From assembly GCA_965552135.1 (NCBI GenBank), contig CBEVQY010000006.1, positions 8,713-72,712 on the forward strand: DNA of 64,000 bases. Direction: 5' to 3'. Numbering within the stretch: position 1 is the stretch's first letter; each line of letters begins with the position of its first letter. Below the pieces are notes generated by a model. That model was not told the origin of the DNA, ran no database searches, and was given only the letters and a program-made list of their open reading frames with translations. Origin of the DNA: an uncultured bacterium. GTDB lineage: Bacteria > UBP14 > UBA6098 > B30-G16. The translations under genes were made by a program, and so were the position numbers. Positions 9,870 to 49,581 of the stretch are shown piece by piece.

Positions 9870-9975
9870 TGCCAAAAGCTCCGCGAACTATGTGCCTGTG
9901 GAATGGCAAAATGTTTTGCCCAAAGCTTTGGGTGAGCGTAATTTTGTCTCGAAAGCGCGAAGAAGGGGGTGAGGC

Positions 9976-11364
9976 ATGATTATCTGTCTTTTGTGTGCTT
10001 TTTTGGCTACGTCTGCGGCGTTTGGTGAGATAGGCTGGTGCGGAAACGTTTGGCCCTTAGATGGCTCCGAGCAGGTCGAGGGCGCTGACCTTGCGGTGTA
10101 CTTCCAGATCTGGAAGGACGGCGTGACCGACGCCGACCCATTCGCCAGGGGCGAGGGTCTTGCGGCGACGCTGTTCTACCGCCTAAGCGGCGAGACCTCG
10201 TGGAACGCCATCCCGATGCACTACAACGTCGACGTCGGCAACAACGATGAGTTTATGGCGACCATCCCCGGCTCGCTCCTTGTGGCTGGAACCGATGTGG
10301 AGGTGTACTGCGAGGGTCTCGACTCCACGGACATGACCACCTGCCAGGGCAACGACCAGAGCGGCAACCCCGCAACCGAGGACGACCCTCTCGTCTATCA
10401 CATCATATCGCCAACGTCGATCGATGTTACGGTGCACTTCTCCGTCAACATGAACGGCGTATCTGAACTGATCGAGCCCGTAAGCGTTGCCGGCACGTTT
10501 ACCGACTGGGGCACAAGCCCTGTGGAGCTCTCCGACCCCGACGAGGACGGCATATACGAAGGCGCTGTGGTCATACCTGCTGGTTCGTCGAGACATCAGG
10601 AGTACAAATACATCATGGGCACCGCCCCAAGCTACGTCTGGGAGGAGATAGGTAACCGGAGCTTCGAGGTCGACGACTCAAACCCTGATCAATACCTGCC
10701 CCTCGATTACTGGAACAACAGGAGCACGAAGCCCATTTGGGTGGTATTTCGCGTCGACATGTCCGCGGAGGAGGTGATTGACCCCTACATAGCCGGCAGT
10801 CAGCCGCCGCTTCACTGGGGCTGGGACGACGGCTGGACCGACGCCGACCGCATATACGACGACGGAACCCACATGGACGAGGTCGCCGGCGACGGTATTT
10901 ACACGACGATAATCGAGTTCCCCGCCGGAACGTACCGCGATATAGAGTATAAGTTCACCACAGACGGCACCGATAACGAGCCGTTGCCACCCTACACAAA
11001 CCACAGGTTCACCCTTACGGAGGATACCGATACGCTCTGGCTGCCCGTTGTGATCTTCGGCGTTCTGGAGGGCGTAGCGGTTGAGCGGCGCGTTCCCACA
11101 AAGCTTTTCGTGCGGAACTATCCCAATCCCTTCAACGCCTCTACGGTCATCGAGTTTGGTTTGACGGAGCCTCCTGCGCAACCCGCAAGGCTTTGCGTGT
11201 ACGACCTCGACGGCAAGCTCGTCGACGTCCTTGTGGACGGGATATCTGCCCCTGGCGTTTATCGCGTCGTTTGGGACGGCGGTGATGCCGCAGCGGGCGT
11301 GTATATATATCGCCTCGAGGGCGAGGGAATAAGTGTGGGTGGGAGGATGATCCTCGTGAAATGA
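9976..11364 (+). CDS. Secreted protein with CBM-like beta-sandwich modules and a T9SS type A C-terminal sorting domain
   Basis: Signal peptide. C-terminus YPNPFNASTVIEF...VYDLDGKLV...GVYRVVWDG...GVYIYRL matches the Por_Secre_tail pattern. Internal module DDGTHMDEVAGDGIYT...YKF resembles the C-terminal module of the GH57 gene at 19591. Confidence 0.6.
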   Translation: MIICLLCAFLATSAAFGEIGWCGNVWPLDGSEQVEGADLAVYFQIWKDGVTDADPFARGEGLAATLFYRLSGETSWNAIPMHYNVDVGNNDEFMATIPGSLLVAGTDVEVYCEGLDSTDMTTCQGNDQSGNPATEDDPLVYHIISPTSIDVTVHFSVNMNGVSELIEPVSVAGTFTDWGTSPVELSDPDEDGIYEGAVVIPAGSSRHQEYKYIMGTAPSYVWEEIGNRSFEVDDSNPDQYLPLDYWNNRSTKPIWVVFRVDMSAEEVIDPYIAGSQPPLHWGWDDGWTDADRIYDDGTHMDEVAGDGIYTTIIEFPAGTYRDIEYKFTTDGTDNEPLPPYTNHRFTLTEDTDTLWLPVVIFGVLEGVAVERRVPTKLFVRNYPNPFNASTVIEFGLTEPPAQPARLCVYDLDGKLVDVLVDGISAPGVYRVVWDGGDAAAGVYIYRLEGEGISVGGRMILVK

Positions 11365-14300
11365 GGGGAAGGGCGATAAAAAGCGTTTTTGTGCTTGCGG
11401 CTTTTGTGTACGCAGCGCCTTACAACACGCCCAGTGTGGACGGCACGATCAATATAGCGCCCGACGACTGGGATGCCGATGAGCTCCTCGTCGACGATCC
11501 TCTCGGCGATTCGTACTGGGGTTCGAACAACGACATCGACGATGTGTTCCTGACTTGGGATGCCCAATACCTTTACCTTGGCATCAGGTTCACCGTCTCC
11601 GACAACGGGATGGTGCTTTATGTTGAGTCGGGTCTTCCGGGGGGCGTCACCGACTTTAGCAGCGCGAGGGGCTACCGCGGCGCCTTCCCGCGGAACATAA
11701 GATTCCCGAGCGACTGCGGCATCGACCTTATGATCGGCAGCTGGAACGGCGAGGGACCTTACGTGTATCTTCTCGCCGACAGCTCGAGCACCGACGTGAC
11801 CTCGTCGTGCATCGTCGCAACGGGGGGAGGTTTTGAGCAGGAGGTAGCCGTTCCGTGGGAGCTTATTTATTCTTCGGCTTCGGGCGTTGTTCAGGCGGGG
11901 GCTGAGCTTAGGGTTGTGTGCGTTATAGTTGGCGGGGACGACTACGGCGGCTGCGACGCCGCCCCCGACAACAGCTCCATCGACGGCGGCGCAGGACCAC
12001 ACGATATAAACCAACTCGCCTCCGTTCTGGTCGATGCCGATGGCGACGGCATACCCGACTACGAAGGAGAGGCGCTTTCGGGGTACATCACCTTTGACGA
12101 TACGCTCTTTGCGGAGCCGCCCTACCCGCAGGCGCTCGTCGAGGTCTTCTCGGAGGCAAGCGGCGAGCTTGTGGCAAGCGCAAGGTCATCAAGCGAGGAC
12201 GGCTCATATTTTCTGGCCGGGCTTGTTGCGGGGCAGATCTACGACGTTGTCGCGAGCGCCAACGGCTTTGCACCCGACACGGCGGCGGGCTTCGTCGCCT
12301 CGGAGGGTGTAAACGAGCTTGACTTCGTTTTGGAGCCCTACGGCGGCTCGATCTACGGGGTCGTAAGCCCGTCCGATTTCCCCACGGTGGTTTACGCCCG
12401 CCAGGGGACGACTGTCGTCGGCTTCGGAGATACGACGGAGGCGGGCAGCGGGGAGTACGAAATCACACACCTTCCTCCGGGCTTCTTCGAGGTTGTTGCG
12501 CAGCCGCAATCGAGCGACTACCTGCCGCAGGTCGTGGAGAGCGTTTGGGTCGGTTTGGACTCTGCGACGCGAGTCGATATAGCGCTCGAGCGCGCCGGCG
12601 TTGTGCGCGAGGTCACCGACGCCACAGGCGACGACTACGGACCGGGATGGTACCAATACCCCACCGACAGGGTCTTCGTCGACGGTGCGTTCGACATAGA
12701 GTTCGTCAAGATCAGGGACCTTGGCGAAAGCTATCAGTTCGAAATCGGTGTGGGCGATATACCTGGTCCCTCCGTCGTCGACTGGAACCCCTACTACCCG
12801 CCGCTCAACCTGCAGAAGATCGATATATATATCGACTGTCACAGGGGCGGTTCACGCGTTGGGCTGCCAAACCGAAACGTCACCTTCGCCGCAACCGACG
12901 CATGGGATTTCGCAATATCCGCCGACGGCTGGTGGGTGGGCTTGCTCGCCTCGAACGGACAAGATATATTCTCCAACTACACCCAAAACACGTCGGACGT
13001 AACGGTCGACGCCGATACTGCGACGGACAGGATGTGGATAACCGTCTCCAAGGATGCGCTCGTCGACCATATGGGGCTTGCCGATACAAGCAAGTTCGAT
13101 CAGTGGGACTTTATCGTTCTTATGCTTGGGCACGATTTTTCGGGTGTTGAGGGCGTCAGGTGGGTGAATTCGGGCACGTCGAATCAGTGGGAGTTCAACA
13201 ACGGCGCCGACGGCGACGTCGACCCCAACGTGATCGACCTGGTCGTCATGCCCGGCCTGGACGCCAGCGGTCAACCCAAAGAGCCCGGTCGAAGCCAGGA
13301 GGAGATGCTCGACTACACGATACAAAGCCCCGTCGTGCTCGAAGCTGCAAGAAGCTACGACATCACTCCGCCCACGATTGAGTATGAGCCGCCCTCCGAG
13401 CTTTTATATCTTTCGGGAAGCGGGGGGGTATATATCGAGGTCTCCGTCGACGACGACGTGGCTGTTGCGGATGTGCGCCTTTATTGGCGAAATATTGGGG
13501 ACGCCGAATGGCATGCTGTCGATATGGGATACCGGGAAAGGGTCGATCGCTTTGTCGGCGATATACCCTTCGAGCAGCTTAAGCCCGATTCTTTCGAGAT
13601 GTTCTTCGAGGCGTTCGATTCGGCGGGCAACGTGGCGTATTTTCCGCAGGATTATCCCGACACCGCGACGCCCTGCGAGCCAACATATCCTCTTTCGACG
13701 TGTTCCCCTGATCCCACGCGTGTGCTGCCCGCAGTCGAGGAGATCGACTCCTTCGCCGAGCGTATCGCAATCAACACGTTCGTGGGCGAAAAGGATATAA
13801 AGTTCCCCGACGGAACGATCCTTGTGTTTGACCGAAGCGCGGTCTTTCCGGATGTCGATACTATTATAATAAGCTTTGCCGCCGGCGATGCTCCCGATGA
13901 GCTTGGCGCGCCTCAAGCCTTTCTGCCCGAGCTGACGCCGCTTGGGATATATCGCCGGCTTCGGGTCTCATCCGAAAAAGGGGACCAGGTTTTCGAGCAG
14001 AGGGCGACGATCTCCCTTCACTACTGCGATTGGAGCACCTCTTTGGGTGATGGCGAGCCTGTTCTTTGTGTTTGGCGGGCGGGTGTGCCGCGGTGGATAT
14101 CCCTTGGGGGCAGCAACGACGCACAATCTAACTCGATGGAAGCCATGTACGACGCAAACGGAACGGTTTTCCTCGGCGTTTTCTACGACTCAACCCTGAA
14201 GCCGCTTGATGAACCTATATCTAACATAATAATAACTCCTAACCCGTTCTCGCCCAACGGCGACGGTTTATACGATGAGACGAATATCACCTTTGACTTA

Positions 14301-14540
14301 GCCTACGACGGTCGTCTCGATGCCGATATATTCGATATGCACGGGCGCTTAATCAAAGTACTTGCGAGGAATCTGCAGGTTTCGGAGGGGAGAAATATCA
14401 ATTTAGTTTGGGATGGTCGCGGCGCTGACGGCAGGACTCAGCCGATGGGTATATATATGCTTTCGGTTCGTTTTACTTATATTTTCGAGGGAAATGAACG
14501 GATTGATAGGCGGAACGAAGCCATCGTGGTGGTGAGATGA
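11361..14540 (+). CDS. Large secreted protein with a glucodextranase-like domain and a T9SS type B C-terminal domain
   Basis: Signal peptide. DDYGPGWYQYPTDRVFVDGAFD resembles the start of a glucodextranase C-terminal-like domain. The extreme C-terminus PNPFSPNGDGLYDE...FDMHGRLIK is the type B (gliding-motility-type) CTD hallmark. The 3' approximately 350 bp are AT-richer. Confidence 0.65.
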   Translation: MRGRAIKSVFVLAAFVYAAPYNTPSVDGTINIAPDDWDADELLVDDPLGDSYWGSNNDIDDVFLTWDAQYLYLGIRFTVSDNGMVLYVESGLPGGVTDFSSARGYRGAFPRNIRFPSDCGIDLMIGSWNGEGPYVYLLADSSSTDVTSSCIVATGGGFEQEVAVPWELIYSSASGVVQAGAELRVVCVIVGGDDYGGCDAAPDNSSIDGGAGPHDINQLASVLVDADGDGIPDYEGEALSGYITFDDTLFAEPPYPQALVEVFSEASGELVASARSSSEDGSYFLAGLVAGQIYDVVASANGFAPDTAAGFVASEGVNELDFVLEPYGGSIYGVVSPSDFPTVVYARQGTTVVGFGDTTEAGSGEYEITHLPPGFFEVVAQPQSSDYLPQVVESVWVGLDSATRVDIALERAGVVREVTDATGDDYGPGWYQYPTDRVFVDGAFDIEFVKIRDLGESYQFEIGVGDIPGPSVVDWNPYYPPLNLQKIDIYIDCHRGGSRVGLPNRNVTFAATDAWDFAISADGWWVGLLASNGQDIFSNYTQNTSDVTVDADTATDRMWITVSKDALVDHMGLADTSKFDQWDFIVLMLGHDFSGVEGVRWVNSGTSNQWEFNNGADGDVDPNVIDLVVMPGLDASGQPKEPGRSQEEMLDYTIQSPVVLEAARSYDITPPTIEYEPPSELLYLSGSGGVYIEVSVDDDVAVADVRLYWRNIGDAEWHAVDMGYRERVDRFVGDIPFEQLKPDSFEMFFEAFDSAGNVAYFPQDYPDTATPCEPTYPLSTCSPDPTRVLPAVEEIDSFAERIAINTFVGEKDIKFPDGTILVFDRSAVFPDVDTIIISFAAGDAPDELGAPQAFLPELTPLGIYRRLRVSSEKGDQVFEQRATISLHYCDWSTSLGDGEPVLCVWRAGVPRWISLGGSNDAQSNSMEAMYDANGTVFLGVFYDSTLKPLDEPISNIIITPNPFSPNGDGLYDETNITFDLAYDGRLDADIFDMHGRLIKVLARNLQVSEGRNINLVWDGRGADGRTQPMGIYMLSVRFTYIFEGNERIDRRNEAIVVVR

Positions 14541-15400
14541 AGGGGCAGATATCGTTCAAATTGCTTTGCGTTCTGTTGTTTGTTGGCTCCGCTTTTGGCT
14601 CGGATCTGGATATTTACGTCAACGGTGGCACCCGCGCTGTGTCGGTGGGCAATGCGTATACGGCTTTGTGTGACGCCGCCGACGCAGTTTTCTGGAACCC
14701 GGCGCGCATGCACTCGGACAAACGGGTAAACTTTGCCGCAAACTACGCGAGGATGTACGGGGTAGGTGGATTATATAACTTTTCCTCTGCTTTTACGCTC
14801 AGTTTCTCGAAGTGGGCGTTGGGGGTAGGTTGGAACGGGAATATATTGAGCGATGTTTACGGTGAAAACGTTGTGCTTCTTGGAGTGTCGCGGTCGGTTT
14901 CGCGCTCCATTTCGCTTGGAGGAGCTGCTAAAGGCATATATATATCTGCCCCGGGTTATCTTAAATATTCTGACCCCAGCTTCAGACGCCGCTGCGTTGC
15001 GCTCACGCTAAGTCTGGCTTTGGATTGTAAGCCTCTGTATAATCTCGACTGCGCGCTTGTCCTCGATGACCTTCTGGAGCCCGAAGTCTCTCTGCTAACA
15101 TCGACTGCAGAAAAAGATAGACTCAGGCGCGAAATTAGATTGGGACTTGCGTATCACTTACAGCAATATTTAGTTCTCAGCGCCGACCTTGCCGGTGGAT
15201 TCGACATGGACGATTGGAGATTTAATATAGGTACGGAAGTCAGGTTTTTCGGGGCGCTGGCGCTCCGCAGCGGTTTTTCCAACGGTAGGTTAGGACTGGG
15301 AGTTGGACTTTTCGCGAAGAACTGGAAAGCCGACTTCGGCGTGTATTCACACCGAGTCCTTGGAAACAGATATCAGTTTTCAATAAAATTAAGACGTTGA
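14537..15400 (+). CDS. PorP/SprF-family T9SS outer-membrane protein (putative cognate partner of the type B cargo)
   Basis: Signal peptide, N-terminal ...AYTALCDAADAVFWNPA motif, 287 aa. 4-bp overlap with the upstream type B CTD gene, the arrangement seen for sprB/sprF-like pairs. Confidence 0.5.
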   Translation: MKGQISFKLLCVLLFVGSAFGSDLDIYVNGGTRAVSVGNAYTALCDAADAVFWNPARMHSDKRVNFAANYARMYGVGGLYNFSSAFTLSFSKWALGVGWNGNILSDVYGENVVLLGVSRSVSRSISLGGAAKGIYISAPGYLKYSDPSFRRRCVALTLSLALDCKPLYNLDCALVLDDLLEPEVSLLTSTAEKDRLRREIRLGLAYHLQQYLVLSADLAGGFDMDDWRFNIGTEVRFFGALALRSGFSNGRLGLGVGLFAKNWKADFGVYSHRVLGNRYQFSIKLRR

Positions 15401-15403
15401 GCT

Positions 15404-16849
15404 ATGACGCAGTTTTATAAATTAGTGGTGCTTCTGCTGCCTTTGATTTGCTACGGCGCTGTTCGGTTGGACGGTTATTTCGAGAACGTCAACCACTGCG
15501 ACTGGAATCTCCGCTGGTATATGAGTGAACCACATAACAACCTTGAGCTCCGTTTCACAGGGACGCCGGCTAAAAATATAGAGGCTTTTATTAAATTTCA
15601 CGCTGAATCCGACAAGTTTTTGAACAATAACCGCGCTTGTCGCTATACGATCTACGATATGCTTGAGATGCACGGTAAGTTTCGCTGGGACAGGGGGTTG
15701 GAGGTGGTTGTGTTCTCCCGCGAAAATCGCTTTTGGTTTCCGCAGGGGCTTATGGAGCTGGTTTCACAATGGGTGGTCAACGACGGCGGCAACGCGCAGG
15801 GCGTTCGGATAGACTTCTGGAACCTGTGGAAATTTTACGGGGTTATCATCCATAGCGATTATTCCCAGTCCTCTGGGGAGGACGCAAACATATTGCGCTG
15901 GAACCTGCCACTTTTTGATAATAAAGTGCGAATATCGTCAACGCTGGCGCGCAAGGATTGGGGAACCGAGAGCGGCAACTATAACGCCATTTACTCACTT
16001 GACGCGCACCTCTCCGTAGGCAGACTCTTGCCGTTCCTGCATCGCTTCGGGAACATAGCGCTGTGGACGGAGGTTGCAAGAAGTCACATTCCGGAGAATC
16101 CCCAGAGGAACCTGGCTTTTGCGGCGGAGGTAAGGAATATTCGCTGGGGTGGACTGGACGCGCAGTTCTCCTATCATAAGGTTCAGGAGAATTTTCGTTC
16201 ATATTTGTCGAGCGACTACGATTGGGGGCAGAAATATAATGAAGAAGGTTTTTCCGTCCAGGGAACCTATTTCTTTCCCATGAAGGCAGTGAACTTTACG
16301 TCGAAATATTCTTACTATGTATCCCCGGTCAATCGGGCATTCCCGGTATGTTCGACTAACCCAAAACGGCGTTATCAGGAGTGGTATAATGAGTTATATA
16401 TCGAGTTTATATACGATGTTAAATGTAAGATTTGGTATCGGTATTACCGTGGCTGGGACATGAATTATGACGCCTATAAAACCTACCCCTCTCTTTTTGG
16501 AGAGATATCCTTCGAGAACTATTTTGCAAAAGTTCGTTTGCAGGCAAAGTGGAAAGACATTGGCACTCCGTATGATTTGCAAGCTTTCGGCATTGAAATA
16601 AACGCTAATATCTCACGCAACTGGAAACTCTATATACGTTCGATGAATGTAAATGAAATTGCGGAGTCGAGACAAACTGTTTTCGCTCAGCTTCAATATC
16701 ACGGCTGGTCTAATACCGATTTCTTTATTGAGTTCGGTAATCCATATGATTCAGACAACGACTTAACTAACGATGACGATTTTGTCGATGTTTCTGCCAA
16801 TCACGGTATAAGCAAGCAACTGAAGACATATATTCGATTTTACTTCTAA
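15404..16849 (+). CDS. Putative outer-membrane beta-barrel protein (hypothetical)
   Basis: Signal peptide, abundant alternating aromatic residues, C-terminal ...YIRFYF (terminal Phe typical of outer-membrane beta-barrels). AT-rich codon usage, within the island. Confidence 0.45.
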   Translation: MTQFYKLVVLLLPLICYGAVRLDGYFENVNHCDWNLRWYMSEPHNNLELRFTGTPAKNIEAFIKFHAESDKFLNNNRACRYTIYDMLEMHGKFRWDRGLEVVVFSRENRFWFPQGLMELVSQWVVNDGGNAQGVRIDFWNLWKFYGVIIHSDYSQSSGEDANILRWNLPLFDNKVRISSTLARKDWGTESGNYNAIYSLDAHLSVGRLLPFLHRFGNIALWTEVARSHIPENPQRNLAFAAEVRNIRWGGLDAQFSYHKVQENFRSYLSSDYDWGQKYNEEGFSVQGTYFFPMKAVNFTSKYSYYVSPVNRAFPVCSTNPKRRYQEWYNELYIEFIYDVKCKIWYRYYRGWDMNYDAYKTYPSLFGEISFENYFAKVRLQAKWKDIGTPYDLQAFGIEINANISRNWKLYIRSMNVNEIAESRQTVFAQLQYHGWSNTDFFIEFGNPYDSDNDLTNDDDFVDVSANHGISKQLKTYIRFYF

Positions 16850-16856
16850 GGAGGCT

Positions 16857-19169
16857 TTGATGAGGCAAGATTTATATATCATATTAGTGTTCTTCATCTT
16901 CTTTTCAGCAAGCCATGCGAAATACATTGTCAAAGGCGACAGCGTTACCTTCGTTTATGCTGACTCCAGCGCGCGCGAGGTTTACGTAGCCGGAGATTTC
17001 AATAACTGGGATCCTCGCGACATTAGGCTGGAGCGTAGCGATGGCATCTTTACTATTACGATCTTCGTTTCCCCGGGGCGTCATGAGTATAAATTTATAG
17101 TCGATGGTATTTGGAAGGAGGATCCAGATAATCCCGAAACTGTTCCCGACCCGTATGGAGGCAAAAATTCCGTCTTGTGGGTCGGGCGTAGATCAAAGGA
17201 TATTGAACTGCAGTCCGTAAAGATTGGTGGTAAAGCTTTATTTACGTATTATAATCCAAGTGCACGGGAAGTATACCTTGCGGGCGAGTTCAATAATTGG
17301 AATCCCCGTCAGCTATTAATGGAGAATCACGACGGCACTTGGGAAATTAGGCTTGACTTGCCCCCGGGTGAATATGAATATAAATTTGTGGTTGACGGTG
17401 TTTGGACTGCTGATCCATTGAATCCGGTTACACGCGGTCCAATGGGAAATTCTGTCATAAAAATAAACCCCGACGGCACGGCGACATATCCTCGAGGTGC
17501 GCGCCTTTTGGCTAATTCCATTGCGTCGTCGCGGATTTTGTTCGGTGGTTTGTTTACGTCGCATCTTGTTACCTATCACGATCGTGATCTGCCGGGCGAT
17601 TATAACGGCGACGGGCGCCTAAAGCTGTATAAACCAGCGATCTTGGCGGCTGTAGATTTGAGGGTTCATATAAGTGAAGGAGTCTCTTTGACGACATCGT
17701 TTGATGTCAACGCTTTTGATGCCGAGAAGATTTACGAAGCGCACTTTCGGATCGACTCAATTGGCGCTTCATTTGAGTCGGATAATTTTAATTTACGACT
17801 TTTTTATAACATGGACGTGTTTTCCACCGACGATCCTTTGAGGGCTGTGGGTGGCATGAAGTATCCCGAACCGACTTTCGAGCCTTGCAGGTCGCTGGGG
17901 TTGGGATATGCAGGGCTTTATTTGCGGAAGCAGTGGGCTGAGGGTATCTTGCGAGGAACAGCTTTTGATATATTGTTCGCAAATCTATTCAAGGATTGGA
18001 GCTTCAGTCCGGACTCTTTTGATTTCATAAACATGCTTCGAAGACGTGCGGTGGGTTTTTGGCGCTCGGATATAATTAGCACCAGTGAACCTCGCGATTT
18101 TTCCGATTACGGCACCGATATGTTGATCGCGCGCATAACGCGCTCGTTGCAGTTTGGTAAGCTTGGTCTTACCGTGCGATTTGACAAGAATGGATGGTGG
18201 CTGCCTTTGTCAGAAATTACCTATGAAAACATTGATTCAATTTATGAAGCCTATGAGCTCCATTCCGATTGGCTGGAGCTTGGCTCGTATGAGTTAGGAA
18301 CGGGGGTTGATTTGTTAATCTCACCATTGAAAGGCTGGGATTTTTCGGGTGAGTATATGTTGTGGAGCTATCGTTCTTCTATCGATGCAGGCAATCGCGA
18401 GAACAGTGATCATACAGGGGATTCAACAATCAACATCACACTTGGCGCACAAACTGGTTATTTAGCGTCGGGGTGTGTGAATGTGAACATATATGAGCCA
18501 ATTACTATCGGTCTTACTTATTTGCTTGAACGCTATGATAGTATGGCGCGAGAAGATGTTTATATATATCCTATGTCTAACGATGGTTCTACTGGAAGGC
18601 CTACATTGGCGTACTTGCATATGCCCAACTATAATCGTTCGCGTATAGAAGGATCGCTGCGGGTGACCACAGCTGCTTTTAGCTCTGCCGTGCACATCGG
18701 TTGGGATAAGTCGACCGAATGGAATACGTTTTTTGCTGATTTGAATGGAAATTGCTCGCCTTTTCGAAGGATAAGAATTAAGAGCAAGGGTTTCTATGCC
18801 AGGGGTAATGCCAATGCGTACGATTTCTGTGACGCAGGCGGTGTTGTGAATGTACAATTTGAGATACTGCGTGATTGGGGATTGGAGTTTGATCTATTTG
18901 GTCGGTGGCTCAGAGTTCGGAGCGACACCAGCGAAAGCGTAACTGGTCTTGTTTTGGCGCCTTATTGCGCATTTTTATATGAGCCAGTTCCTCATACACG
19001 GCTTGAGATTTCATATGGGGTAAGACCCTATAATGTGATAGGTCAATATGTCGGCAGAACGGAATGGGTATACAACACAATGCGGCAGAATTCGCTGAGT
19101 TTTATTACTGCACTGCAACGTCTCGAGGCTTATCGATGTGTTAACTTGTACGCAAGCGTGAGGTTTTGA
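16857..19169 (+). CDS. Secreted protein with tandem CBM48 / AMPK-beta-type glycogen-binding domains fused to a putative outer-membrane beta-barrel
   Basis: Signal peptide. Two repeats of (F/Y)..AREVY(V/L)AG(D/E)FNNW(D/N)PR...(E/H)Y(K/E)YKF(I/V)VDG(I/V)W..DP.NP match the AMPK-beta glycogen-binding domain. The C-terminal approximately 550 aa are beta-rich and end in ...LYASVRF. Confidence 0.6.
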   Translation: MMRQDLYIILVFFIFFSASHAKYIVKGDSVTFVYADSSAREVYVAGDFNNWDPRDIRLERSDGIFTITIFVSPGRHEYKFIVDGIWKEDPDNPETVPDPYGGKNSVLWVGRRSKDIELQSVKIGGKALFTYYNPSAREVYLAGEFNNWNPRQLLMENHDGTWEIRLDLPPGEYEYKFVVDGVWTADPLNPVTRGPMGNSVIKINPDGTATYPRGARLLANSIASSRILFGGLFTSHLVTYHDRDLPGDYNGDGRLKLYKPAILAAVDLRVHISEGVSLTTSFDVNAFDAEKIYEAHFRIDSIGASFESDNFNLRLFYNMDVFSTDDPLRAVGGMKYPEPTFEPCRSLGLGYAGLYLRKQWAEGILRGTAFDILFANLFKDWSFSPDSFDFINMLRRRAVGFWRSDIISTSEPRDFSDYGTDMLIARITRSLQFGKLGLTVRFDKNGWWLPLSEITYENIDSIYEAYELHSDWLELGSYELGTGVDLLISPLKGWDFSGEYMLWSYRSSIDAGNRENSDHTGDSTINITLGAQTGYLASGCVNVNIYEPITIGLTYLLERYDSMAREDVYIYPMSNDGSTGRPTLAYLHMPNYNRSRIEGSLRVTTAAFSSAVHIGWDKSTEWNTFFADLNGNCSPFRRIRIKSKGFYARGNANAYDFCDAGGVVNVQFEILRDWGLEFDLFGRWLRVRSDTSESVTGLVLAPYCAFLYEPVPHTRLEISYGVRPYNVIGQYVGRTEWVYNTMRQNSLSFITALQRLEAYRCVNLYASVRF

Positions 19170-19171
19170 AA

Positions 19172-19573
19172 ATGGCGGAAAGAACTATGCAACTTATGGT
19201 TTGCATTTGGATTTTGTTTGTCATTTCATGTATCGGTTGTGCACATCTTATAAAAAATAGATTACCCCCACCGCATAAGGTTGATGGCGGGATACTTTTT
19301 CAATATGAAAACAAAGCCGCCCATTCCGTCAACCTTGCGGGAAACTTCAACGGCTGGTGCGGCACAAAGGAGTACGGTAGATTTGATCCGTCGATAGGTG
19401 TAATGCACGATGATGATGGGGATGGAATATGGGAAATTATTGTTCCATTGCCGCCCGGACGGTATCAATATAAATTCGTCATCGATAACGGAGCTAGTTG
19501 GGTCCTTGATCCCAATAATCCATTGACTGACTATGAAGATGGTATTGAAAACTCTCTCTTAATTGTGGAATAA
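19172..19573 (+). CDS. Small CBM48 (glycogen-binding domain) lipoprotein
   Basis: Lipobox (FVISC), then a single domain: VNLAGNFNGW...GIWEIIVPLPPGRYQYKFVIDNG.WVLDPNNP. About 134 aa. Confidence 0.6.
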   Translation: MAERTMQLMVCIWILFVISCIGCAHLIKNRLPPPHKVDGGILFQYENKAAHSVNLAGNFNGWCGTKEYGRFDPSIGVMHDDDGDGIWEIIVPLPPGRYQYKFVIDNGASWVLDPNNPLTDYEDGIENSLLIVE

Positions 19574-19590
19574 TAACATGAGGAGTCATT

Positions 19591-22167
19591 ATGATGGTAT
19601 GGAGGGATGCAAGGATGTTGTTTTGGGCGTCGTTATTGTACGTGTCTCTTCTCGTTGCGCAGCCTGTGAAACATGGTGATAATGTTCTATTTCGCTTTTG
19701 GGCTCCACAGGCTAGGATTGTTTACCTTGCTGGCGAGTTCAACAGCTGGAACCCTCGCGCGCTGCCAATGCAGAGAGACTCATCAGGTATGTGGATAGTT
19801 GAGTTGCAGCTTGAGCCCGGCGTTTATCAATATAAGTTTGTAATAGATGGAATCGATTGGCGCGAGGATCCAAATAATCCCTATAAAGTCGATGACAACT
19901 TCGGAGGTTACAATTCCGTTTTGACGATAACTGCTGATGGTGATGTTGTACTGGGAGAACTTCCATATACGGGTCCTTTGTCCGACGAATATGTGGTTAA
20001 TGGGAAGTTGTATTTAAATATAATTTGGCACCAGCATCAGCCGTTGTATCTCGATCCAGAAGATGATAAATTAATAGGTCCTTGGGTTCGTGCACACGCT
20101 ACAAAGGATTATTACGATATGGCGGCAATGCTCGAGAAATTTCCCAACGTTCACTGTACGATCAATTTAACTTCAGTTCTGTTATTCCAATTGCAGGAAT
20201 ATTATGTAAAGCGCCTAGGAGAGTGCGTTGACTTAAGTGCGAATAGAGTTGATACTGCAAAATACTGGGCGAAATGGGGTGGGCGCGTAGATCCCTGGAT
20301 CGACCTTGCGTTGAAACCTACCGAGCTTTTTACTGCGGAGGACGATGCGTACCTTTATAAAAATGCGTGGAATGCTTTTGGAATTTCGGATGTTATGATT
20401 GAACGATTTCCTGAATATAAAGCGCTGAAAGAGAAGGGCGGGAATTATAGTATTGACGAAAAGCGTCAGATCAAGTTCTGGCACTATCTTGCTTGGTTCG
20501 ATCCCGATTTTCTGCGAGGACCCGTGAAGCTCGCCACCGGTTATGTTTGCGATCTATCGGACTTAGTCGAAGAGCGAGACGGCAAATTTTATCTCCGCCA
20601 TCCGGTAACTGAAGATGATTGTAATAGAATCATTGCCGAAGTTTATAAAGTATGTGCCGCGATTATCCCGATTCATAAGAAACTAATGTACGATCCAGAC
20701 ACACATCAGGGTCAGATCGAAATTATAACAACACCGTATTATCACCCTATTCTTCCTTTAATATGTTCAACGGATATAGCTCGCGTTTGTCAACCTGGCG
20801 CGCCGCTGCCCAAGCTTTTCTCATACCCTGAAGATGCGCAAGCGCAGGTCGCTAAAGCTGTTGCATATTATAAGTCTATTTTCGGAAAGGCACCGTATGG
20901 AATGTGGCCGGCTGAAGGAGCTGTTGCAGAAAACATTTTGTCCGTGTTGGCTTTGAATAATATATTATGGATGGCAACTGGCGACGGCGTTCTTTACCGT
21001 TCTCTTCCTGGAGCTCCTTTCTACTTTCCCTATCGGGTTGACACCGACACTATCCCAGGCTTTTCGGAAAATGCCCTTGCCATTGTTTTTAGGAATACTG
21101 AGCTGTCAGACAAAATAGGGTTTAGGTATCAGCGAAAAACGGGTGAGCAAGCTGCGGATGACTTTATTCGTTCTATTATAAAATACGCTTCCCCGGACGA
21201 GGACAGGTTGCTGACGGTGATTCTCGACGGCGAGAACGCATGGGAGTGGTATCGACTTGACAATGATGGTAAACAGTTTCTTCACGCGTTATATCGTAAA
21301 TTGTCGAAGCTGACTGAGGAAGGGAAGGTTATAACGGTGACACCTATCGAGTATATAATGGGTAATCCAGCCCGAGGCGTTCCCCCTCATCCCGTAACTG
21401 CGATGCCAGAGATAGAGCCTCTTTGGCCTGGTTCGTGGATCAACGCCAACTTCGATACTTGGATCGGTGAAGACGAAGAGAATCGCGCCTGGGAGTACTT
21501 GCTTCAAACTCGGCAGGACTTGGGCACGTCTGGGATTGCGCCACCGGATCCCGCTGAAAGTTGTCCAGATGCTGGTTCGCCGGCCTACTGCAGATATATG
21601 GCGTGGGAGGAAATGTATGCGGCCGAGGGAAGCGACTGGTTCTGGTGGTATGGGCAGGACCAAGGAGCCCCCGGCGGGGACAAGCCGTTTGAACGTATAT
21701 TCTTGACTCATCTTAAAAGCGTGTATAGTTTTATGAAGGAGTGCGGTTGGAAAGGGGAGATGCCGCAGTTTGAGCCGATCCTTACCGGCCTCGCCGGTGG
21801 AGGCGGTGTTATGGCAGAGTCCAGCAAAATGGTAAAAGTTATATTTACCTGTGATGCGCGTGCGATAAATGTACCCGATGCTATATATATAGCGGGTGAA
21901 TATCCCGAGCTTGGTTCTTGGGTACCTAATAAAGTACGCATGTATGACGACGGCACTCACGGTGACGAAGTTGCAGGCGATGGGATATGGACCATAACCT
22001 TCGAGTTCCCTGTTGGCACATCCGTTCAGTATAAATATACTAACTCCGGCAAAATCGGTGTTTGGAGCCCGAGCGAGGAGTTTCCGGCGATAAATCGGAA
22101 AATATATGTTCGTGACGAAGGAAATGGCACGATGATCGTTCGAGATATTTTTGGGAAAATGGACTAA
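19591..22167 (+). CDS. Glycoside hydrolase family 57 alpha-glucan-active enzyme with N-terminal CBM48 and C-terminal CBM-like module, secreted
   Basis: Signal peptide. N-terminal CBM48 (YLAGEFNSWNP...GVYQYKFVIDGIDWREDPNNP). GH57 conserved regions IIWHQHQPLY, GQIEIITTPYYHPILPL, WPAEGAV, VILDGENAWEW, AEGSDWFWWYG. C-terminal module DDGTHGDEVAGDGIWT...YKY. Confidence 0.75.
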   Translation: MMVWRDARMLFWASLLYVSLLVAQPVKHGDNVLFRFWAPQARIVYLAGEFNSWNPRALPMQRDSSGMWIVELQLEPGVYQYKFVIDGIDWREDPNNPYKVDDNFGGYNSVLTITADGDVVLGELPYTGPLSDEYVVNGKLYLNIIWHQHQPLYLDPEDDKLIGPWVRAHATKDYYDMAAMLEKFPNVHCTINLTSVLLFQLQEYYVKRLGECVDLSANRVDTAKYWAKWGGRVDPWIDLALKPTELFTAEDDAYLYKNAWNAFGISDVMIERFPEYKALKEKGGNYSIDEKRQIKFWHYLAWFDPDFLRGPVKLATGYVCDLSDLVEERDGKFYLRHPVTEDDCNRIIAEVYKVCAAIIPIHKKLMYDPDTHQGQIEIITTPYYHPILPLICSTDIARVCQPGAPLPKLFSYPEDAQAQVAKAVAYYKSIFGKAPYGMWPAEGAVAENILSVLALNNILWMATGDGVLYRSLPGAPFYFPYRVDTDTIPGFSENALAIVFRNTELSDKIGFRYQRKTGEQAADDFIRSIIKYASPDEDRLLTVILDGENAWEWYRLDNDGKQFLHALYRKLSKLTEEGKVITVTPIEYIMGNPARGVPPHPVTAMPEIEPLWPGSWINANFDTWIGEDEENRAWEYLLQTRQDLGTSGIAPPDPAESCPDAGSPAYCRYMAWEEMYAAEGSDWFWWYGQDQGAPGGDKPFERIFLTHLKSVYSFMKECGWKGEMPQFEPILTGLAGGGGVMAESSKMVKVIFTCDARAINVPDAIYIAGEYPELGSWVPNKVRMYDDGTHGDEVAGDGIWTITFEFPVGTSVQYKYTNSGKIGVWSPSEEFPAINRKIYVRDEGNGTMIVRDIFGKMD

Positions 22168-22186
22168 CTAACCTAAGGAGGTAACA

Positions 22187-23422
22187 ATGCGTATTATAAG
22201 AATACTCCTACTTCTGACGGCAGCTTTGGCGATTTTGACGTCCTGCGGCAGGAAACAGAATAGGGTCACGACCATAACGATTTGGCACCAGATGCAAGTC
22301 GAAGGGCGCAGTGTACTTAGGAAATTATGCGATGAGTATCAAAAACTACATCCAAATGTTAAAATTGAACTTTTGTATAAAGAAACGGAGGAGCTGCGTT
22401 CAGCGTTCCAAACTGCTGCTCTGGCTGGCTCGGGACCTGAACTTGTGTATGGTCCTGCTGATCAAATTGGACCTTTTGCTAAAATGAAGATTATATTGCC
22501 TCTTGACACACTGTTCTCATCGGATACATTAAAGCATTTTGATCCTAAGTCATTAACCTACTTTGAGGGTCATCTGTATCAAATAGGTGATAGAGTCGGC
22601 AACCATTTAGCGCTAGTTTACAATAAAGGGCTTGTTTCTACCCCTCCTCAAACATCGGAAGAGCTTATTAAAATAGGTGGGCAATTAACCAAAGACATCG
22701 ACGGCGATGGACGGATAGACCAATATGCTCTTGTCTGGAATTACACTGAACCTTATTTCTTTGTTCCGTTCATAGGGGGTTTTGGAGGCTGGATTATGGA
22801 CGAAAATGCCCGTCCAACTCTGAATACACCAGCTGTCGTAAACGCATTTAAGTTTATCGTGGCGCTTCGCGACAGCTACAAGATTATTCCGAAGGAATGT
22901 GATTATGATATGGCTGATGCTCTTTTCAAGGAAGGGCGAGCTGCCATGATTATAAACGGTCCTTGGTCGTGGGGTGGATATATTAAAGCGGGGATCGATA
23001 TTGGTATTGCTCGCATTCCTAAAATGTCTGAGACTGGACTATGGCCAACACCTATGTTCTCGCCTAAAGGGTATTCAATAAACGAAAATATTTCTGCGAG
23101 CAAACTGAAGCAAGTCGTTGAGTTACTGTATTATCTCACCTCACCGCGTTCTGAGCTTGAGTTTACTAAGGTGCTCGGGACGATACCATCGAGGCTGGAG
23201 GCACAAAAGGATACGGTTGTTGTGAATAATCCGATTATAAAAGCCTCCAAGGAGCAGCTTGAGGTTTGTAAGCCTATGCCTGTTGTGCCGGAGCTGCGCG
23301 CGATCTGGGACGCGATGAGACCGGCTTATCAAGCGGTCTTAGCGGGTACGATGACCCCTGAGGATGCAGCCAAAGCTATGCAAAAAGAAGCCATTAAAAA
23401 AATAAAGGAGATGTATGAATAA
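22187..23422 (+). CDS. ABC transporter substrate-binding lipoprotein, maltose/maltodextrin-type (MalE-like)
   Basis: Lipobox LTSC and family 1 solute-binding-protein features (ITIWHQMQ..., GPWSWGGY). 411 aa. Confidence 0.8.
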   Translation: MRIIRILLLLTAALAILTSCGRKQNRVTTITIWHQMQVEGRSVLRKLCDEYQKLHPNVKIELLYKETEELRSAFQTAALAGSGPELVYGPADQIGPFAKMKIILPLDTLFSSDTLKHFDPKSLTYFEGHLYQIGDRVGNHLALVYNKGLVSTPPQTSEELIKIGGQLTKDIDGDGRIDQYALVWNYTEPYFFVPFIGGFGGWIMDENARPTLNTPAVVNAFKFIVALRDSYKIIPKECDYDMADALFKEGRAAMIINGPWSWGGYIKAGIDIGIARIPKMSETGLWPTPMFSPKGYSINENISASKLKQVVELLYYLTSPRSELEFTKVLGTIPSRLEAQKDTVVVNNPIIKASKEQLEVCKPMPVVPELRAIWDAMRPAYQAVLAGTMTPEDAAKAMQKEAIKKIKEMYE

Positions 23423-24317
23423 AATGAAGGGAAGTTTACACAAGAGCGAAGCATTTTTTAAGTATATATTCCTCACTCCAGCGCTTTTGGTTATTTTTGC
23501 CGTAGTCGTTTATCCGTTCGTATATAATATCGTGTTATCACTATCTAACATGAGCATGACCCACTTCCGCGACTGGAGGCTCGTCGGTTTTGCTCAATAT
23601 AAAAAGGTTTTTACGGAACCAATATTTTACTCTGTCTTCCTGAAAACGGTGATTTGGACGGTTGTCAACGTATTTTTCCATGTCGTCATAGGCGTTTTTT
23701 TGGCTGTTTTGCTCAACCGCAATCTTCCTGGGAAAAGCGTGTACAGAACGTTGCTTATCATTCCCTGGGCTGTTCCGCAGTATATTACTGCTCTGACCTG
23801 GCGCGGAATGTTTAACTATGAGTACGGCGCTGTCAACCTCTTCCTGTCCAAATTCCTGCATCTACCTATGATCCAATGGCTCAAACATCCGTTTTATGCT
23901 TTTGTCGCATGTATAATAACGAACGTTTGGCTTGGTTTTCCGTTTATGATGGTTATCGCCTACGGTGGGCTTCAAGCAATACCGCGCGAGCTCTACGACG
24001 CCGCTGAGGTCGATGGCGCAACTGCTTGGCAGAAGTTCTGGAAAATAACTGTGCCTTACCTTAAACCTGTTATGACGCCTGCCATTATCTTGGGCATCAT
24101 ATGGACGTTCAACAACCTGAACGTGGTCTGGCTTGTGTCGAACGGCGGAGAACCTTCAGATAAAACGCATATTCTCGTCTCATATGTATATAAAGCGGCT
24201 TTTAACCTGTATCGTTACGGCTACGCTGCGGCGTTGTCGATGGTTATATTCCTAATTCTGCTTATATTCGCTGTGCTTTTCATAAAGCAGACTAAGGCGA
24301 CGGAAAGCATATATTGA
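23415..24317 (+). CDS. Carbohydrate ABC transporter permease (MalF-like)
   Basis: Six-TM permease with EAA-type loop (GATAWQKFWKITVPYLKP). 8-bp overlap with the upstream binding-protein gene. Confidence 0.8.
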   Translation: MNKMKGSLHKSEAFFKYIFLTPALLVIFAVVVYPFVYNIVLSLSNMSMTHFRDWRLVGFAQYKKVFTEPIFYSVFLKTVIWTVVNVFFHVVIGVFLAVLLNRNLPGKSVYRTLLIIPWAVPQYITALTWRGMFNYEYGAVNLFLSKFLHLPMIQWLKHPFYAFVACIITNVWLGFPFMMVIAYGGLQAIPRELYDAAEVDGATAWQKFWKITVPYLKPVMTPAIILGIIWTFNNLNVVWLVSNGGEPSDKTHILVSYVYKAAFNLYRYGYAAALSMVIFLILLIFAVLFIKQTKATESIY

Positions 24318-25162
24318 GAGGTTCGGCCATGAAGAGGCGACGACGAATAGTAGATGCCCTTATTTATGTATTTCTAACCTGCTTTACGGCTGCAACCCTT
24401 TATCCCGTTGTGCGGGTTGTGTCGATATCGCTTCGACCTGGCGACAGACTTCTGTCCACATCGCTGCGGATAATACCCAAGGACGCGACCTTAGAGGCAT
24501 ATAGACGCCTTTTCACCGAAACACCCTTCTTGCGCTGGATGTTAAACTCCCTCATCGTCTCAGCTGCCGTAACTTTAACCGGTGTTGTGCTTGCTGCGAC
24601 CGCTGGTTATATTTTCTCTAAGCACGATTTTATTGGAAAAAAACTCAGCCTAACGGCAATTCTGACGACGCAGATGTTCCCCGCTACTATGTTGCTTCTG
24701 CCCATGTATATTATGTTGTCTAAGCTTGGGCTGATCAACAGTTACTTAGGATTGATTATAGTTTACACTGCCACAGCTCTGCCGTTTTGCATATGGCAGA
24801 TGAAGGGTTATTACGATACCATCCCAAACTCGCTCTACGAGGCTGCCATAATCGATGGGTGTTCCCACTTCCAGGCGTTTTATAAGGTTATTCTGCCCCT
24901 TGCTGCTCCAGCGCTCGTTATAACGGCTTTGTTCTCGTTTATGTCTGCGTGGTCGGAATATATTGTTGCTGCGCAGATACTACAGCAGCCCGATATGTTT
25001 ACTCTCCCCCTCGGGTTGAAGCAGTTTCAGTCCAACATGACGACGCAGTGGGGGCTTTATGCCGCTGGCGCCGTCGTTGTGTCGATTCCCGTCGTCGTGC
25101 TTTTTATAATCTTGAGCCGATGGCTCATAAGCGGCTTGACGCTTGGCAGCGTTAAGGAATAA
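24314..25162 (+). CDS. Carbohydrate ABC transporter permease (MalG-like)
   Basis: Permease with EAA motif ([25 protein letters not shown]). 4-bp overlap with the upstream permease. Confidence 0.8.
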
Positions 25163-25182
25163 AAAGCACAGCGAGGTGCAGT

Positions 25183-37027: not shown

Positions 37028-37029
37028 AG

Positions 37030-37530: not shown

Positions 37531-37579
37531 CGAAAGCTTGAATGCCTGGGCTCCTGCGTAAGCTTGCTTTTAGTGCGTT

Positions 37580-49498: not shown

Positions 49499-49581
49499 AA
49501 CTCCCTCCTTTGGTAAGCTCTTTGTAAAAATTAGCCGAGGTTCGAAGATGCGCAAGAGGGAAGTGATCTTTTGTGGGGATG

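What the first reader, a model, noticed from the sequence alone, without database searches (positions are those of the whole stretch)
16857..19169. Tandem CBM48 glycogen-binding domains fused to a putative outer-membrane beta-barrel
Residues about 25-205 contain two clear AMPK-beta-type glycogen-binding domains: AREVY(V/L)AG(D/E)FNNW(D/N)PR...(H/E)YKF(I/V)VDG(I/V)W..DP.NP.

The remaining approximately 550 aa are aromatic-rich and beta-strand-like. The protein ends in Phe (...LYASVRF), as outer-membrane beta-barrels do.

CBM48 normally decorates soluble GH13 enzymes. A glucan-binding porin or capture protein of this kind would be a new architecture. It could act as the surface receptor and channel for alpha-glucans in this locus.
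Basis: partly seen in the sequence, partly recalled or inferred. Interest (0 to 1): 0.8.

Follow-up and report, generated by a model that had tools for sequence, protein, structure and literature searches.

The report
Starch-binding outer-membrane barrel, new family
This gene encodes an outer-membrane barrel protein with two starch/glycogen-binding modules fused to its front end; it belongs to an undescribed protein family that always sits in the same starch-utilisation gene cluster in several uncultured bacterial phyla, which points to a way of taking up starch unlike the textbook systems.

Summary

A profile of the barrel alone finds only 41 cluster representatives among 1.84 billion proteins. 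All 29 checked carry CBM48 or CBM20 at the N-terminus, and 31 of 32 full-length ones end in Phe.

In 8 of 9 loci where the upstream DNA is available, the gene lies in a fixed module:
- a PorV-like small barrel;
- a second new barrel of about 24 strands;
- this protein;
- a small CBM48 lipoprotein.

Around the module are T9SS-displayed binding proteins, GH57/GH13 enzymes and a MalEFGK-type importer. Labelled relatives come from Zixibacteria, Eisenbacteria and Krumholzibacteriia.

The "new architecture" and "alpha-glucan uptake" readings are supported. The "surface receptor" reading is doubtful: strand parity puts the CBM48s on the periplasmic side. My best model is TonB-independent passage of glucan chains with periplasmic capture. 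Topology and transport are inferred, not shown.

The parts
16860..19169 (+). Target gene g5: CBM48-CBM48-barrel protein. It is 769 aa from the ATG at 16860; the ORF tool starts it at the TTG at 16857, giving 770 aa. Residue numbers in this report use the 770-aa frame.
16857..16919 (+). Signal peptide (residues 1-21, cleavage after SHA)
   Evidence: Read directly from the sequence. All homologues have a hydrophobic N-terminus.
16920..17186 (+). Distal CBM48 (residues 22-110), with W51, K79, W86 and N104 present
17232..17468 (+). Barrel-proximal CBM48 (residues 126-204). W148, W162, Y175, K176, W183 and N198 are invariant in 32 of 32 family representatives.
17469..17537 (+). Conserved linker of fixed length (residues 205-227, ...DGTAxYPxGAxxxxNSTASSR)
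17538..19166 (+). Predicted 22-strand outer-membrane beta-barrel (residues 228-770). It has conserved long loops (e.g. SIDAGNRENxDxTGDST, NDGSTGRPTL, GVRPYN..GR) and a terminal Phe.
19166..19573 (+). g6: 135-aa CBM48 lipoprotein with an invariant lipobox Cys25. Its start overlaps the g5 stop by 4 nt. It is adjacent to the target in every one of the 14 related loci that reach the target's 3' side (L001-L009, L011-L016).
15404..16849 (+). g4: 481-aa second outer-membrane barrel of about 24 strands with very short loops. It ends in YF and belongs to its own family without any Pfam match.
14537..15400 (+). g3: 287-aa PorV/PorQ/PorP-like small outer-membrane barrel
11361..14540 (+). g2: 1059-aa surface protein with a Glucodextran_C domain, a CarboxypepD_reg domain and a weak T9SS type-B-like C-terminal domain
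9976..11364 (+). g1: 462-aa protein with CBM20/X25-like modules and a T9SS type A sorting domain
19591..22167 (+). g7: GH57 enzyme with N-terminal CBM48, C-terminal CBM20 and a signal peptide. It has no lipobox and no T9SS C-terminal domain.
22187..26238 (+). g8-g11: MalE-like binding protein, two permeases and a MalK-like ATPase

Best explanation
g5 is a BAM-inserted outer-membrane protein. It has a signal peptide, two sugar-binding-competent CBM48 modules, a linker of fixed length, and a plugless 22-strand beta-barrel from an undescribed sequence family. The barrel's long loops are unusually conserved and probably fold into the lumen.

It is the signature subunit of a conserved envelope module: a PorV-like barrel (g3), a barrel of about 24 strands (g4), this protein (g5) and a CBM48 lipoprotein (g6). 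The module sits inside an alpha-glucan utilisation operon.

Proposed mechanism:
1. T9SS-displayed proteins g1 and g2 hold starch or glycogen at the cell surface.
2. Glucan chains pass the outer membrane through the g5 barrel, possibly together with g4, without TonB energy.
3. The barrel-proximal CBM48 sits at the periplasmic mouth. Helped by the distal CBM48 and the g6 lipoprotein, it captures the emerging chain, biases its movement inward like a ratchet, and presents it to the periplasmic GH57, which itself carries CBMs.
4. The products are imported by the MalEFGK-type transporter.

Shown: the domain architecture, the predicted barrel fold, the obligate CBM-barrel fusion, the conserved synteny and the intact sugar-contact residues.

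Inferred: membrane location, topology of the CBMs, channel activity, direction of transport and independence from TonB.
For: Architecture and fold:
- CBM48 x2, Pfam E 8e-35.
- The proximal CBM48 aligns with the AMPK beta-1 CBM (1z0n) and conserves FNNW, YKF, DGxW and N. These positions are invariant in 32 of 32 representatives.
- The AlphaFold model has pLDDT 72 overall and 84-91 over most of residues 530-690, with 22 long strands.
- The terminal residue is Phe in 31 of 32 representatives and Tyr in the last one. All have signal peptides.

No plug or known family: no family match beyond the CBM48 region, at Pfam E <= 0.1 and NCBIfam E <= 0.01 on the whole protein, and none at all at Pfam E <= 10 on the barrel alone.

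Obligate fusion: a barrel-only profile finds 41 representatives, and all 29 scanned carry CBM48 or CBM20.

Synteny: the core g3-g4-g5-g6 plus GH57/GH13/GDE and ABC importer genes appears in the window and in L002, L003, L006, L007, L008, L012, L013, L014, L015 and L016. The genes are tightly packed or overlapping.

Topology:
- All long loops lie on the side away from both termini.
- The long loops are more conserved (0.54-0.86 identity) than the strands (0.15-0.59).
- The linker keeps a length of 29-44 residues, mode 32, across the family.
- g6 has an invariant lipobox Cys followed by a basic stretch rather than an acidic one. It is the best conserved envelope component, at 61-88% identity in the close loci.
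- GH57 has a signal peptide and CBMs but no lipobox or T9SS C-terminal domain.
- Surface binding is already provided by the T9SS cargo proteins g1 and g2.
Against: - No coordinates could be inspected, so barrel closure, lumen occlusion and the position of the CBM48s in the model were not verified. pTM is only 0.58, and the N-terminal third of the barrel has pLDDT 41-76.
- Strand parity does not exclude a linker threaded through the pore, as in autotransporters. Its 24 residues would be long enough.
- In the Sus paradigm, starch-binding modules are on the cell surface.
- g4 is a large plugless barrel and may be the real conduit.
- Lipoprotein sorting rules for these phyla are unknown.
- No expression or binding data exist.
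Confidence: 0.5

Rival explanations
1. The tandem CBM48s are exposed on the cell surface and act as the starch receptor, and the same protein's barrel is the channel. The linker would reach the surface through the barrel lumen or through g4.
For: - The CBM48s look competent to bind sugar.
- The Sus paradigm places binding modules outside the cell (general knowledge).
- The 24-residue linker is long enough to span a barrel.
- g5 diverges faster than the neighbouring periplasmic and inner-membrane genes: 43-46% identity against 64-82%.
Against: - The even strand count and the loop pattern place the N-terminus on the periplasmic side.
- In every well-studied barrel with a globular domain directly before strand 1 (BamA, LptD, TonB-dependent transporters and SusC, ushers, BcsC/PgaA), that domain is periplasmic (own knowledge).
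- The lumen is probably filled by the conserved loops.
- The proximal CBM48 and the linker are among the most conserved parts (0.66 and 0.65 identity), which is unlike surface-exposed regions.
- Surface binding proteins are already encoded by g1 and g2.
Confidence: 0.25
2. Scaffold or gate model. The g5 barrel is self-plugged and does not conduct glucan. It anchors the CBM48s next to g4, and the plugless g4 barrel of about 24 strands is the real conduit. The g5 CBMs, the g6 lipoprotein, or both would gate or feed that pore.
For: - g4 is more conserved than g5 (58-65% against 43-46%) and is nearly always adjacent to it.
- The conserved g5 loops may occlude its lumen.
Against: - L001 keeps g5 and g6 with no g3 or g4 next to them, so the pair can apparently work without an adjacent g4.
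- A 22-strand barrel is far larger than a mere anchor needs to be.
- No contact between the proteins has been shown.
Confidence: 0.15
3. Degenerate TonB-dependent transporter. The barrel descends from a TonB-dependent transporter, and the proximal CBM48 replaces the plug inside the lumen. Transport would still be energised.
For: - The best structural matches are TonB-dependent transporter barrels with the same strand number.
- The domain lies directly before strand 1, as a plug does.
Against: - No Plug or TonB_dep_Rec match was found at Pfam E <= 0.1 on the whole protein, or at E <= 10 on the barrel alone.
- No TonB box was recognised.
- Sequence identity to transporter barrels is 7-12%.
- An 80-residue CBM48 is about half the size of a plug.
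Confidence: 0.06
4. Export porin. A periplasmic polysaccharide-binding domain plus an outer-membrane barrel exports a self-made alpha-glucan, such as a capsule or biofilm polymer, by analogy with BcsC, PgaA or AlgK/AlgE.
For: - The architecture resembles export porins: a periplasmic binding domain followed by a barrel.
Against: - No glycosyltransferase or synthase is present in any locus.
- The partner genes are catabolic or for import: GH57, GH13, GDE, and a binding-protein-dependent ABC importer with MalE-like and MalK-like subunits.
Confidence: 0.04

Closest known systems
TonB-dependent transporters, including SusC of the Bacteroides starch utilisation system
   Different: There is no plug, no recognisable TonB box and no sequence-profile match. 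No SusD-like gene is present. The N-terminal domains are CBM48s fused covalently. Two further barrels (g3, g4) belong to the module.
Sugar-specific porins: maltoporin LamB, ScrY, CymA, chitoporin
   Same: These are TonB-independent outer-membrane passages for oligo- and polysaccharide chains, with loops folded into the lumen. They feed a MalEFGK-type importer. By my recollection ScrY has a periplasmic N-terminal extension.
LptD-LptE
   Same: An N-terminal periplasmic beta-sandwich domain is followed by a very large barrel, and a small lipoprotein encoded alongside is required with it.
Atypical polysaccharide utilisation locus chu_1276-chu_1280 of Cytophaga hutchinsonii
   Same: It is a glycan-utilisation cluster without SusC/D. 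Its outer-membrane protein CHU_1276 is predicted to be a barrel resembling TonB-dependent transporters, and it works with surface glycan-binding proteins and an endoglucanase (PMC12016534).
   Different: It acts on cellulose, not alpha-glucan. No CBM-barrel fusion is reported. Sequences could not be compared here.
CBM9-like domain + DUF5916 proteins (recalled from memory, not tested)
   Same: As I recall, they have an N-terminal carbohydrate-binding-like domain followed by a large predicted barrel of about 600 aa, and they are uncharacterised.
   Different: No Pfam match of any kind was obtained for the g5 barrel at E <= 10. The binding domain is of a different family. No paper was found.

Membership tests
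CBM48 / AMPK-beta glycogen-binding module | Profile match above the curated threshold | tested here: met
   PF16561 scores 119 bits (cut-off 26.8) and PF02922 scores 67.5 bits (cut-off 22.4), each with two stretches.
CBM48 / AMPK-beta glycogen-binding module | Sugar-contact residues. By my recollection of the AMPK beta-1 CBM-cyclodextrin structure these are W100, K126, W133 and N150. | tested here: met
   The alignment to 1z0n conserves FNNW, YKF, DGxW and N. W148, K176, W183 and N198 are invariant in 32 of 32 representatives. W51, K79, W86 and N104 are present in the distal copy.
CBM48 / AMPK-beta glycogen-binding module | Binding to glycogen, amylopectin or cyclodextrin | not testable with these tools
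   This needs purified protein.
BAM-assembled outer-membrane beta-barrel proteins | Sec signal peptide and a C-terminal strand that ends in an aromatic residue | tested here: met
   The N-terminus is hydrophobic with SHA|K. The terminal residue is F in 31 of 32 representatives and Y in one.
BAM-assembled outer-membrane beta-barrel proteins | Closed antiparallel barrel with short periplasmic turns and long outer loops | tested here: met
TonB-dependent transporter | N-terminal plug domain (PF07715) | tested here: not met
   No match at E <= 0.1 on the whole protein. The N-terminus is occupied by the CBM48s.
TonB-dependent transporter | Barrel profile (PF00593) | tested here: not met
   There were zero Pfam matches at E <= 10 for nine family members.
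TonB-dependent transporter | TonB box | tested here: inconclusive
   No convincing motif was seen. The mature N-terminus runs straight into the first CBM48 strand.
SusC/SusD-type polysaccharide utilisation locus | Adjacent SusC-like and SusD-like genes | tested here: not met
   No SusD or TonB-dependent transporter domains were found in any gene between 9060 and 29848.
Maltoporin (LamB) family | LamB profile and an 18-strand barrel | tested here: not met
Autotransporter | 12-strand C-terminal barrel profile with a helical linker | tested here: not met
   There is no profile match. The model has 22 strands, and the linker is modelled as coil.
Synthase-dependent exopolysaccharide export porins (BcsC, PgaA, AlgE) | A TPR or partner domain, a 16-18-strand barrel and synthase genes in the locus | tested here: not met
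   No TPR domain or synthase was found. The locus is catabolic.

The most novel reading that the evidence does not exclude
The g3-g6 module is a previously unrecognised class of outer-membrane polysaccharide importer. It would be TonB-independent and built from plugless large barrels. Carbohydrate-binding modules fused to the barrel, plus a CBM lipoprotein, would work on the periplasmic side or inside the lumen as a Brownian ratchet or sugar-binding gate that pulls whole alpha-glucan chains into the periplasm. That would be the functional counterpart of SusCD in Zixibacteria, Eisenbacteria and related T9SS-bearing phyla.
Probability: 0.35. Interest if true: 0.88.

Novelty: new variant of a known kind. 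Interest (0 to 1): 0.72.

Why it matters
Known routes for glycans across the outer membrane are of two kinds: TonB-dependent transporters (SusCD and its relatives) and small sugar-specific porins. This locus offers a third design. A large plugless barrel is fused covalently to starch-binding modules. It always comes with a second large barrel, a PorV-like barrel and a CBM48 lipoprotein, and it is conserved across several uncultured phyla that are common in sediments.

If confirmed, it would explain how these organisms feed on starch and glycogen without SusCD. It would give a sequence marker for alpha-glucan use in metagenomes. It would also provide a tractable system for asking how a polymer can be moved across an unenergised membrane. 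Two new barrel families (g4 and g5) would merit family definitions.

Tried and rejected
Searches and jobs that failed or gave nothing:
- The afdb50 fold search is not installed on the machine, so AlphaFold-database relatives could not be checked.
- An exact look-up of P0001 to recover the source contig found nothing on record.
- A PDB sequence search with the barrel profile gave zero hits at E <= 10.
- A Pfam scan at E <= 10 on nine barrels gave zero hits.
- hhalign of the g5 barrel against g4 showed no homology (probability 2%). The two barrels are not paralogues.
It was redone with database homologues.
It added only the NCBI name 'glycogen-binding domain-containing protein' for P0011.
- Literature searches found no description of the family. 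The terms tried were CBM48 with outer membrane, PF09985, Zixibacteria with starch, AMPK1_CBM, CBM with porin, DUF5916 and TonB-independent uptake.

Ideas considered and rejected:
- Soluble propeller or sandwich fold for the C-terminal region. Rejected because of the strand pattern and the barrel-only structural matches.
- A TonB-box reading of the N-terminal 'DSVTFVYA'. Rejected because this is simply the first strand of the CBM48 fold.
Full report
**1. The observation**

The ORF 16857..19169 (+) is real. A GGAGG lies 5 nt upstream of the ATG at 16860, and the public copy P0001 has 769 aa, so the gene most likely starts at 16860. Residue numbers below use the 770-aa frame.

Pfam finds two stretches each of AMPK1_CBM (E 8.3e-35) and CBM_48 (E 1.3e-18). 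Nothing else matches at E <= 0.1. NCBIfam only matches the CBM48 part, through GlgB models. The N-terminus (MMRQDLYIILVFFIFFSASHA|KY) is a type I signal peptide, and the protein ends ...NLYASVRF. 'Aromatic-rich' is only moderately true: 14.2% F+W+Y.

**2. The C-terminal 565 residues**

An AlphaFold2 model was built on the nine-sequence family alignment A1. It has mean pLDDT 72 and pTM 0.58, with 84-91 over most of residues 530-690. It shows two small beta domains followed by 22 long antiparallel strands between residues 228 and 769.

At the sequence level the barrel is an orphan:
- no PDB chain matches at E <= 10 with the family profile;
- no Pfam family matches at E <= 10 for any of nine members;
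- no plug domain is present.

The connections between strands alternate. Those on the side of the two termini are short (2-8 residues). Those on the other side include all the long ones (13-41 residues), which is the classical pattern for outer-membrane proteins.

Unusually, the long loops are the best conserved parts of the barrel. Mean pairwise identity is 0.54-0.86 in the long loops, 0.15-0.59 in the strands and 0.11-0.50 in the short turns. The loop GNRENSDHTGDST reaches 0.86. Loops conserved like this are expected to fold into the lumen as a constriction or self-plug, rather than to be freely exposed. This is inference, because I could not inspect coordinates.

**3. The family**

A word-indexed search of 5.8 billion proteins with the barrel alone finds nine proteins of 40-47% identity. 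Every full-length one has the same CBM48-CBM48-barrel architecture.

An exhaustive HMMER search of 1.84 billion cluster representatives with the barrel-only profile finds 41 hits at E <= 1e-3, of which 21 are at E <= 1e-10. The family is therefore rare. I scanned 29 of them against Pfam. All 29 carry one or two N-terminal CBM48 modules, or CBM20 in the case of P0024. Because the query contained no CBM, this shows the fusion is obligate and ancient.

In an alignment of 32 full-length representatives:
- the barrel-proximal CBM48 keeps W148, W162, Y175, K176, W183 and N198 invariant;
- these align with the FNNW / YKF / DGxW / N positions of the AMPK beta-1 CBM (1z0n, E 6e-15), which I recall as the glycogen-contact residues W100, K126, W133 and N150;
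- 31 of 32 end in Phe and one ends in Tyr;
- the segment from the last CBM strand to the first barrel strand is 29-44 residues long (mode 32) with a conserved pattern. This suggests a defined docking of the CBM on the barrel, not a loose tether.

All source names are 'hypothetical protein' or 'glycogen-binding domain-containing protein'. Labelled relatives come from Zixibacteria and Eisenbacteria for g5, and from Zixibacteria, Eisenbacteria and Krumholzibacteriia for g4.

**4. The surroundings**

The gene sits in a tightly packed operon. The gaps from g1 to g11 are -4, -4, 3, 7, -4, 17, 19, -8, -4 and 20 nt.

| Gene | Coordinates | Product |
|---|---|---|
| g1 | 9976-11364 | CBM20/X25-like modules plus a T9SS type A sorting domain above cut-off |
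| g2 | 11361-14540 | Glucodextran_C and CarboxypepD_reg domains, weak type-B-like sorting domain; matches glucodextranase 1ug9 only in residues 774-882 |
| g3 | 14537-15400 | PorV/PorQ-like barrel, E 4e-8; homologues in other loci reach E 4e-20 and also match PorP/SprF |
| g4 | 15404-16849 | 481 aa, no family match, ends in YF |
| g5 | 16857-19169 | the target |
| g6 | 19166-19573 | 135-aa CBM48 protein |
| g7 | 19591-22167 | GH57 with CBM48 and CBM20; signal peptide, no lipobox, no T9SS sorting domain |
| g8-g11 | 22187-26238 | MalE-like binding protein (E 4e-42), two permeases, MalK-like ATPase |

g6 has an invariant Cys within a lipobox (L-[ST]-G-C) in all nine loci aligned. The Cys is followed by a conserved basic stretch, IKxRLxPPH. 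g6 is therefore a lipoprotein. It lacks the acidic export signal that I recall for surface lipoproteins of Bacteroidota.

**5. Synteny**

- g6 follows g5 in every locus that reaches the 3' side of the target: L001-L009 and L011-L016.
- The block g3-g4-g5-g6 is present wherever upstream DNA is available, in the window and in L002, L003, L006, L007, L008, L012, L013, L014, L015 and L016. The only exception is L001.
- L007 and the Zixibacteria contig L008 show the window's gene order as far as they extend: g1-g11 in L007, and from the end of g2 to g11 in L008.
- Even the distant members P0018, P0022, P0024, P0029 and P0034 keep the core next to GH13, GH57 or GDE enzymes, CBM20 proteins and ABC importer genes.

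These points rest.

Across the close loci, g5 (43-46% identity) and g3 (41-44%) diverge fastest. g4 (58-65%), g6 (61-88%), GH57 (64-70%) and the ABC genes (67-82%) are more conserved.

**6. How it most likely works**

Shown:
- a secreted protein with sugar-binding-competent CBM48s fused to a predicted large outer-membrane barrel;
- obligate coupling of the CBM to the barrel;
- obligate pairing with a CBM48 lipoprotein;
- constant association with alpha-glucan catabolic and import genes.

Inferred: the protein takes part in moving alpha-glucan across the outer membrane.

The topology argument runs as follows. With 22 strands, and with the C-terminus periplasmic as in all BAM substrates, the start of strand 1 is periplasmic. 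Every long loop then falls on the opposite side, which is self-consistent. In all well-studied barrels with a globular domain directly before strand 1 (BamA, LptD, TonB-dependent transporters and SusC, ushers, BcsC/PgaA), that domain is periplasmic (own knowledge).

Four further observations fit this:
- the proximal CBM48 and the linker are highly conserved;
- the g6 tether is basic;
- GH57 carries CBMs yet appears to be periplasmic, which implies that long chains reach the periplasm;
- two T9SS-sorted surface binders are already present.

I therefore favour CBM48s at the periplasmic mouth, or partly within the lumen. There they would capture incoming chains and bias their movement inward, then hand them to GH57 and on to MalE. 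g2 and g3 probably form a cargo-anchor pair. This rests on my own knowledge that type-B T9SS cargo associates with PorP-like barrels.

The role of g4 is open: co-channel, main channel or a conduit for something else. An export function is unlikely, given the catabolic and import context. Descent from a TonB-dependent transporter cannot be excluded, but no sequence evidence supports it.

**7. Comparison and novelty**

Functionally this is a polysaccharide utilisation locus. Mechanistically it is not SusCD, not a recognisable TonB-dependent transporter and not a LamB-type porin; the membership table gives the tests. The nearest published analogue I found is the atypical, SusCD-independent cellulose locus chu_1276-1280 of Cytophaga hutchinsonii. 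Its CHU_1276 protein is predicted to be a barrel resembling TonB-dependent transporters (PMC12016534). No CBM fusion is reported there. From memory, CBM9-like + DUF5916 proteins share the 'binding domain + big barrel' layout, but they do not match here.

I rate this as a new variant of a known kind. The task is known (outer-membrane glycan uptake within a utilisation locus). It is carried out by two undescribed barrel families and by a domain architecture that I could not find described.

**8. Limits**

- The models could not be inspected as coordinates.
- The g5 alignment is shallow (nine sequences).
- The AFDB library was unavailable.
- The taxon of the window itself is not known. I infer it is a T9SS-bearing relative of Zixibacteria, from L007 and L008 and from the T9SS sorting domains in the window.
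- There are no experimental data.

Noticed in passing
window 14537-25162, compared with 9060-14540 and 25183-26238: The operon is mosaic in base composition. g3-g10 have GC 42-50% (GC3 40-56%). g0-g2 and g11 have GC 57-62% (GC3 69-75%), close to the window as a whole (56.5%). Related loci are uniform in GC. This suggests the middle 10.7 kb or so of the operon was replaced by recombination with a lower-GC relative.
   Followed up: partly
window 15404-16849 (g4): g4 is a second undescribed outer-membrane barrel family: about 24 strands, very short loops, no plug and no Pfam match. A search found 37 relatives, among them Zixibacteria, Eisenbacteria and Krumholzibacteriia. A plugless barrel this large needs an explanation of its own.
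   Followed up: partly
window 9060-9869 (g0): This 269-aa ORF has no family match, but in tblastn it resembles the g3 (PorV-like) homologue of L002 (26% identity over 230 aa, E 5e-8). The two T9SS cargo genes g1 and g2 are therefore flanked by two PorV-like small barrels.
   Followed up: no
L001 10001-12915: In this contig the g5-g6 pair stands alone, between a UvrD-like helicase gene and unrelated genes. No g3, g4 or glycoside hydrolase gene is nearby. The pair may therefore be the minimal functional unit.
   Followed up: no
L008 1220-2621: In the Zixibacteria 4484_93 contig the g4 homologue is split into two ORFs of 417 and 136 aa. The database entry P0074 is 391 aa. This is either a frameshift or assembly error, or a pseudogene.
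   Followed up: no
window 47261-51600 (-): Two adjacent large proteins (846 and 672 aa) carry right-handed beta-helix and Chlamydia-PMP repeats. They lie in a stretch of lower GC (0.52).
   Followed up: no
window 35396-39136: Two ORFs of 543 and 518 aa have no Pfam match. They lie in another lower-GC stretch (0.50-0.55).
   Followed up: no
window 19591-22167 (g7), residues 783-807; also g1 residues 294-320: Both the GH57 enzyme and g1 contain a short 'choice-of-anchor X' motif (NF041940, E about 1e-9) inside their starch-binding modules. Its significance is unknown.
   Followed up: no
L013 19244-22459 and 13276-14055: In the relative that is probably from Eisenbacteria (an Eisenbacteria-labelled protein shares P0024's 90% cluster), the GH57 enzyme is fused to a Glucodextran_C domain, and a separate 259-aa Glucodextran_C protein sits among the ABC genes. 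This links that domain functionally to the alpha-glucan system.
   Followed up: no
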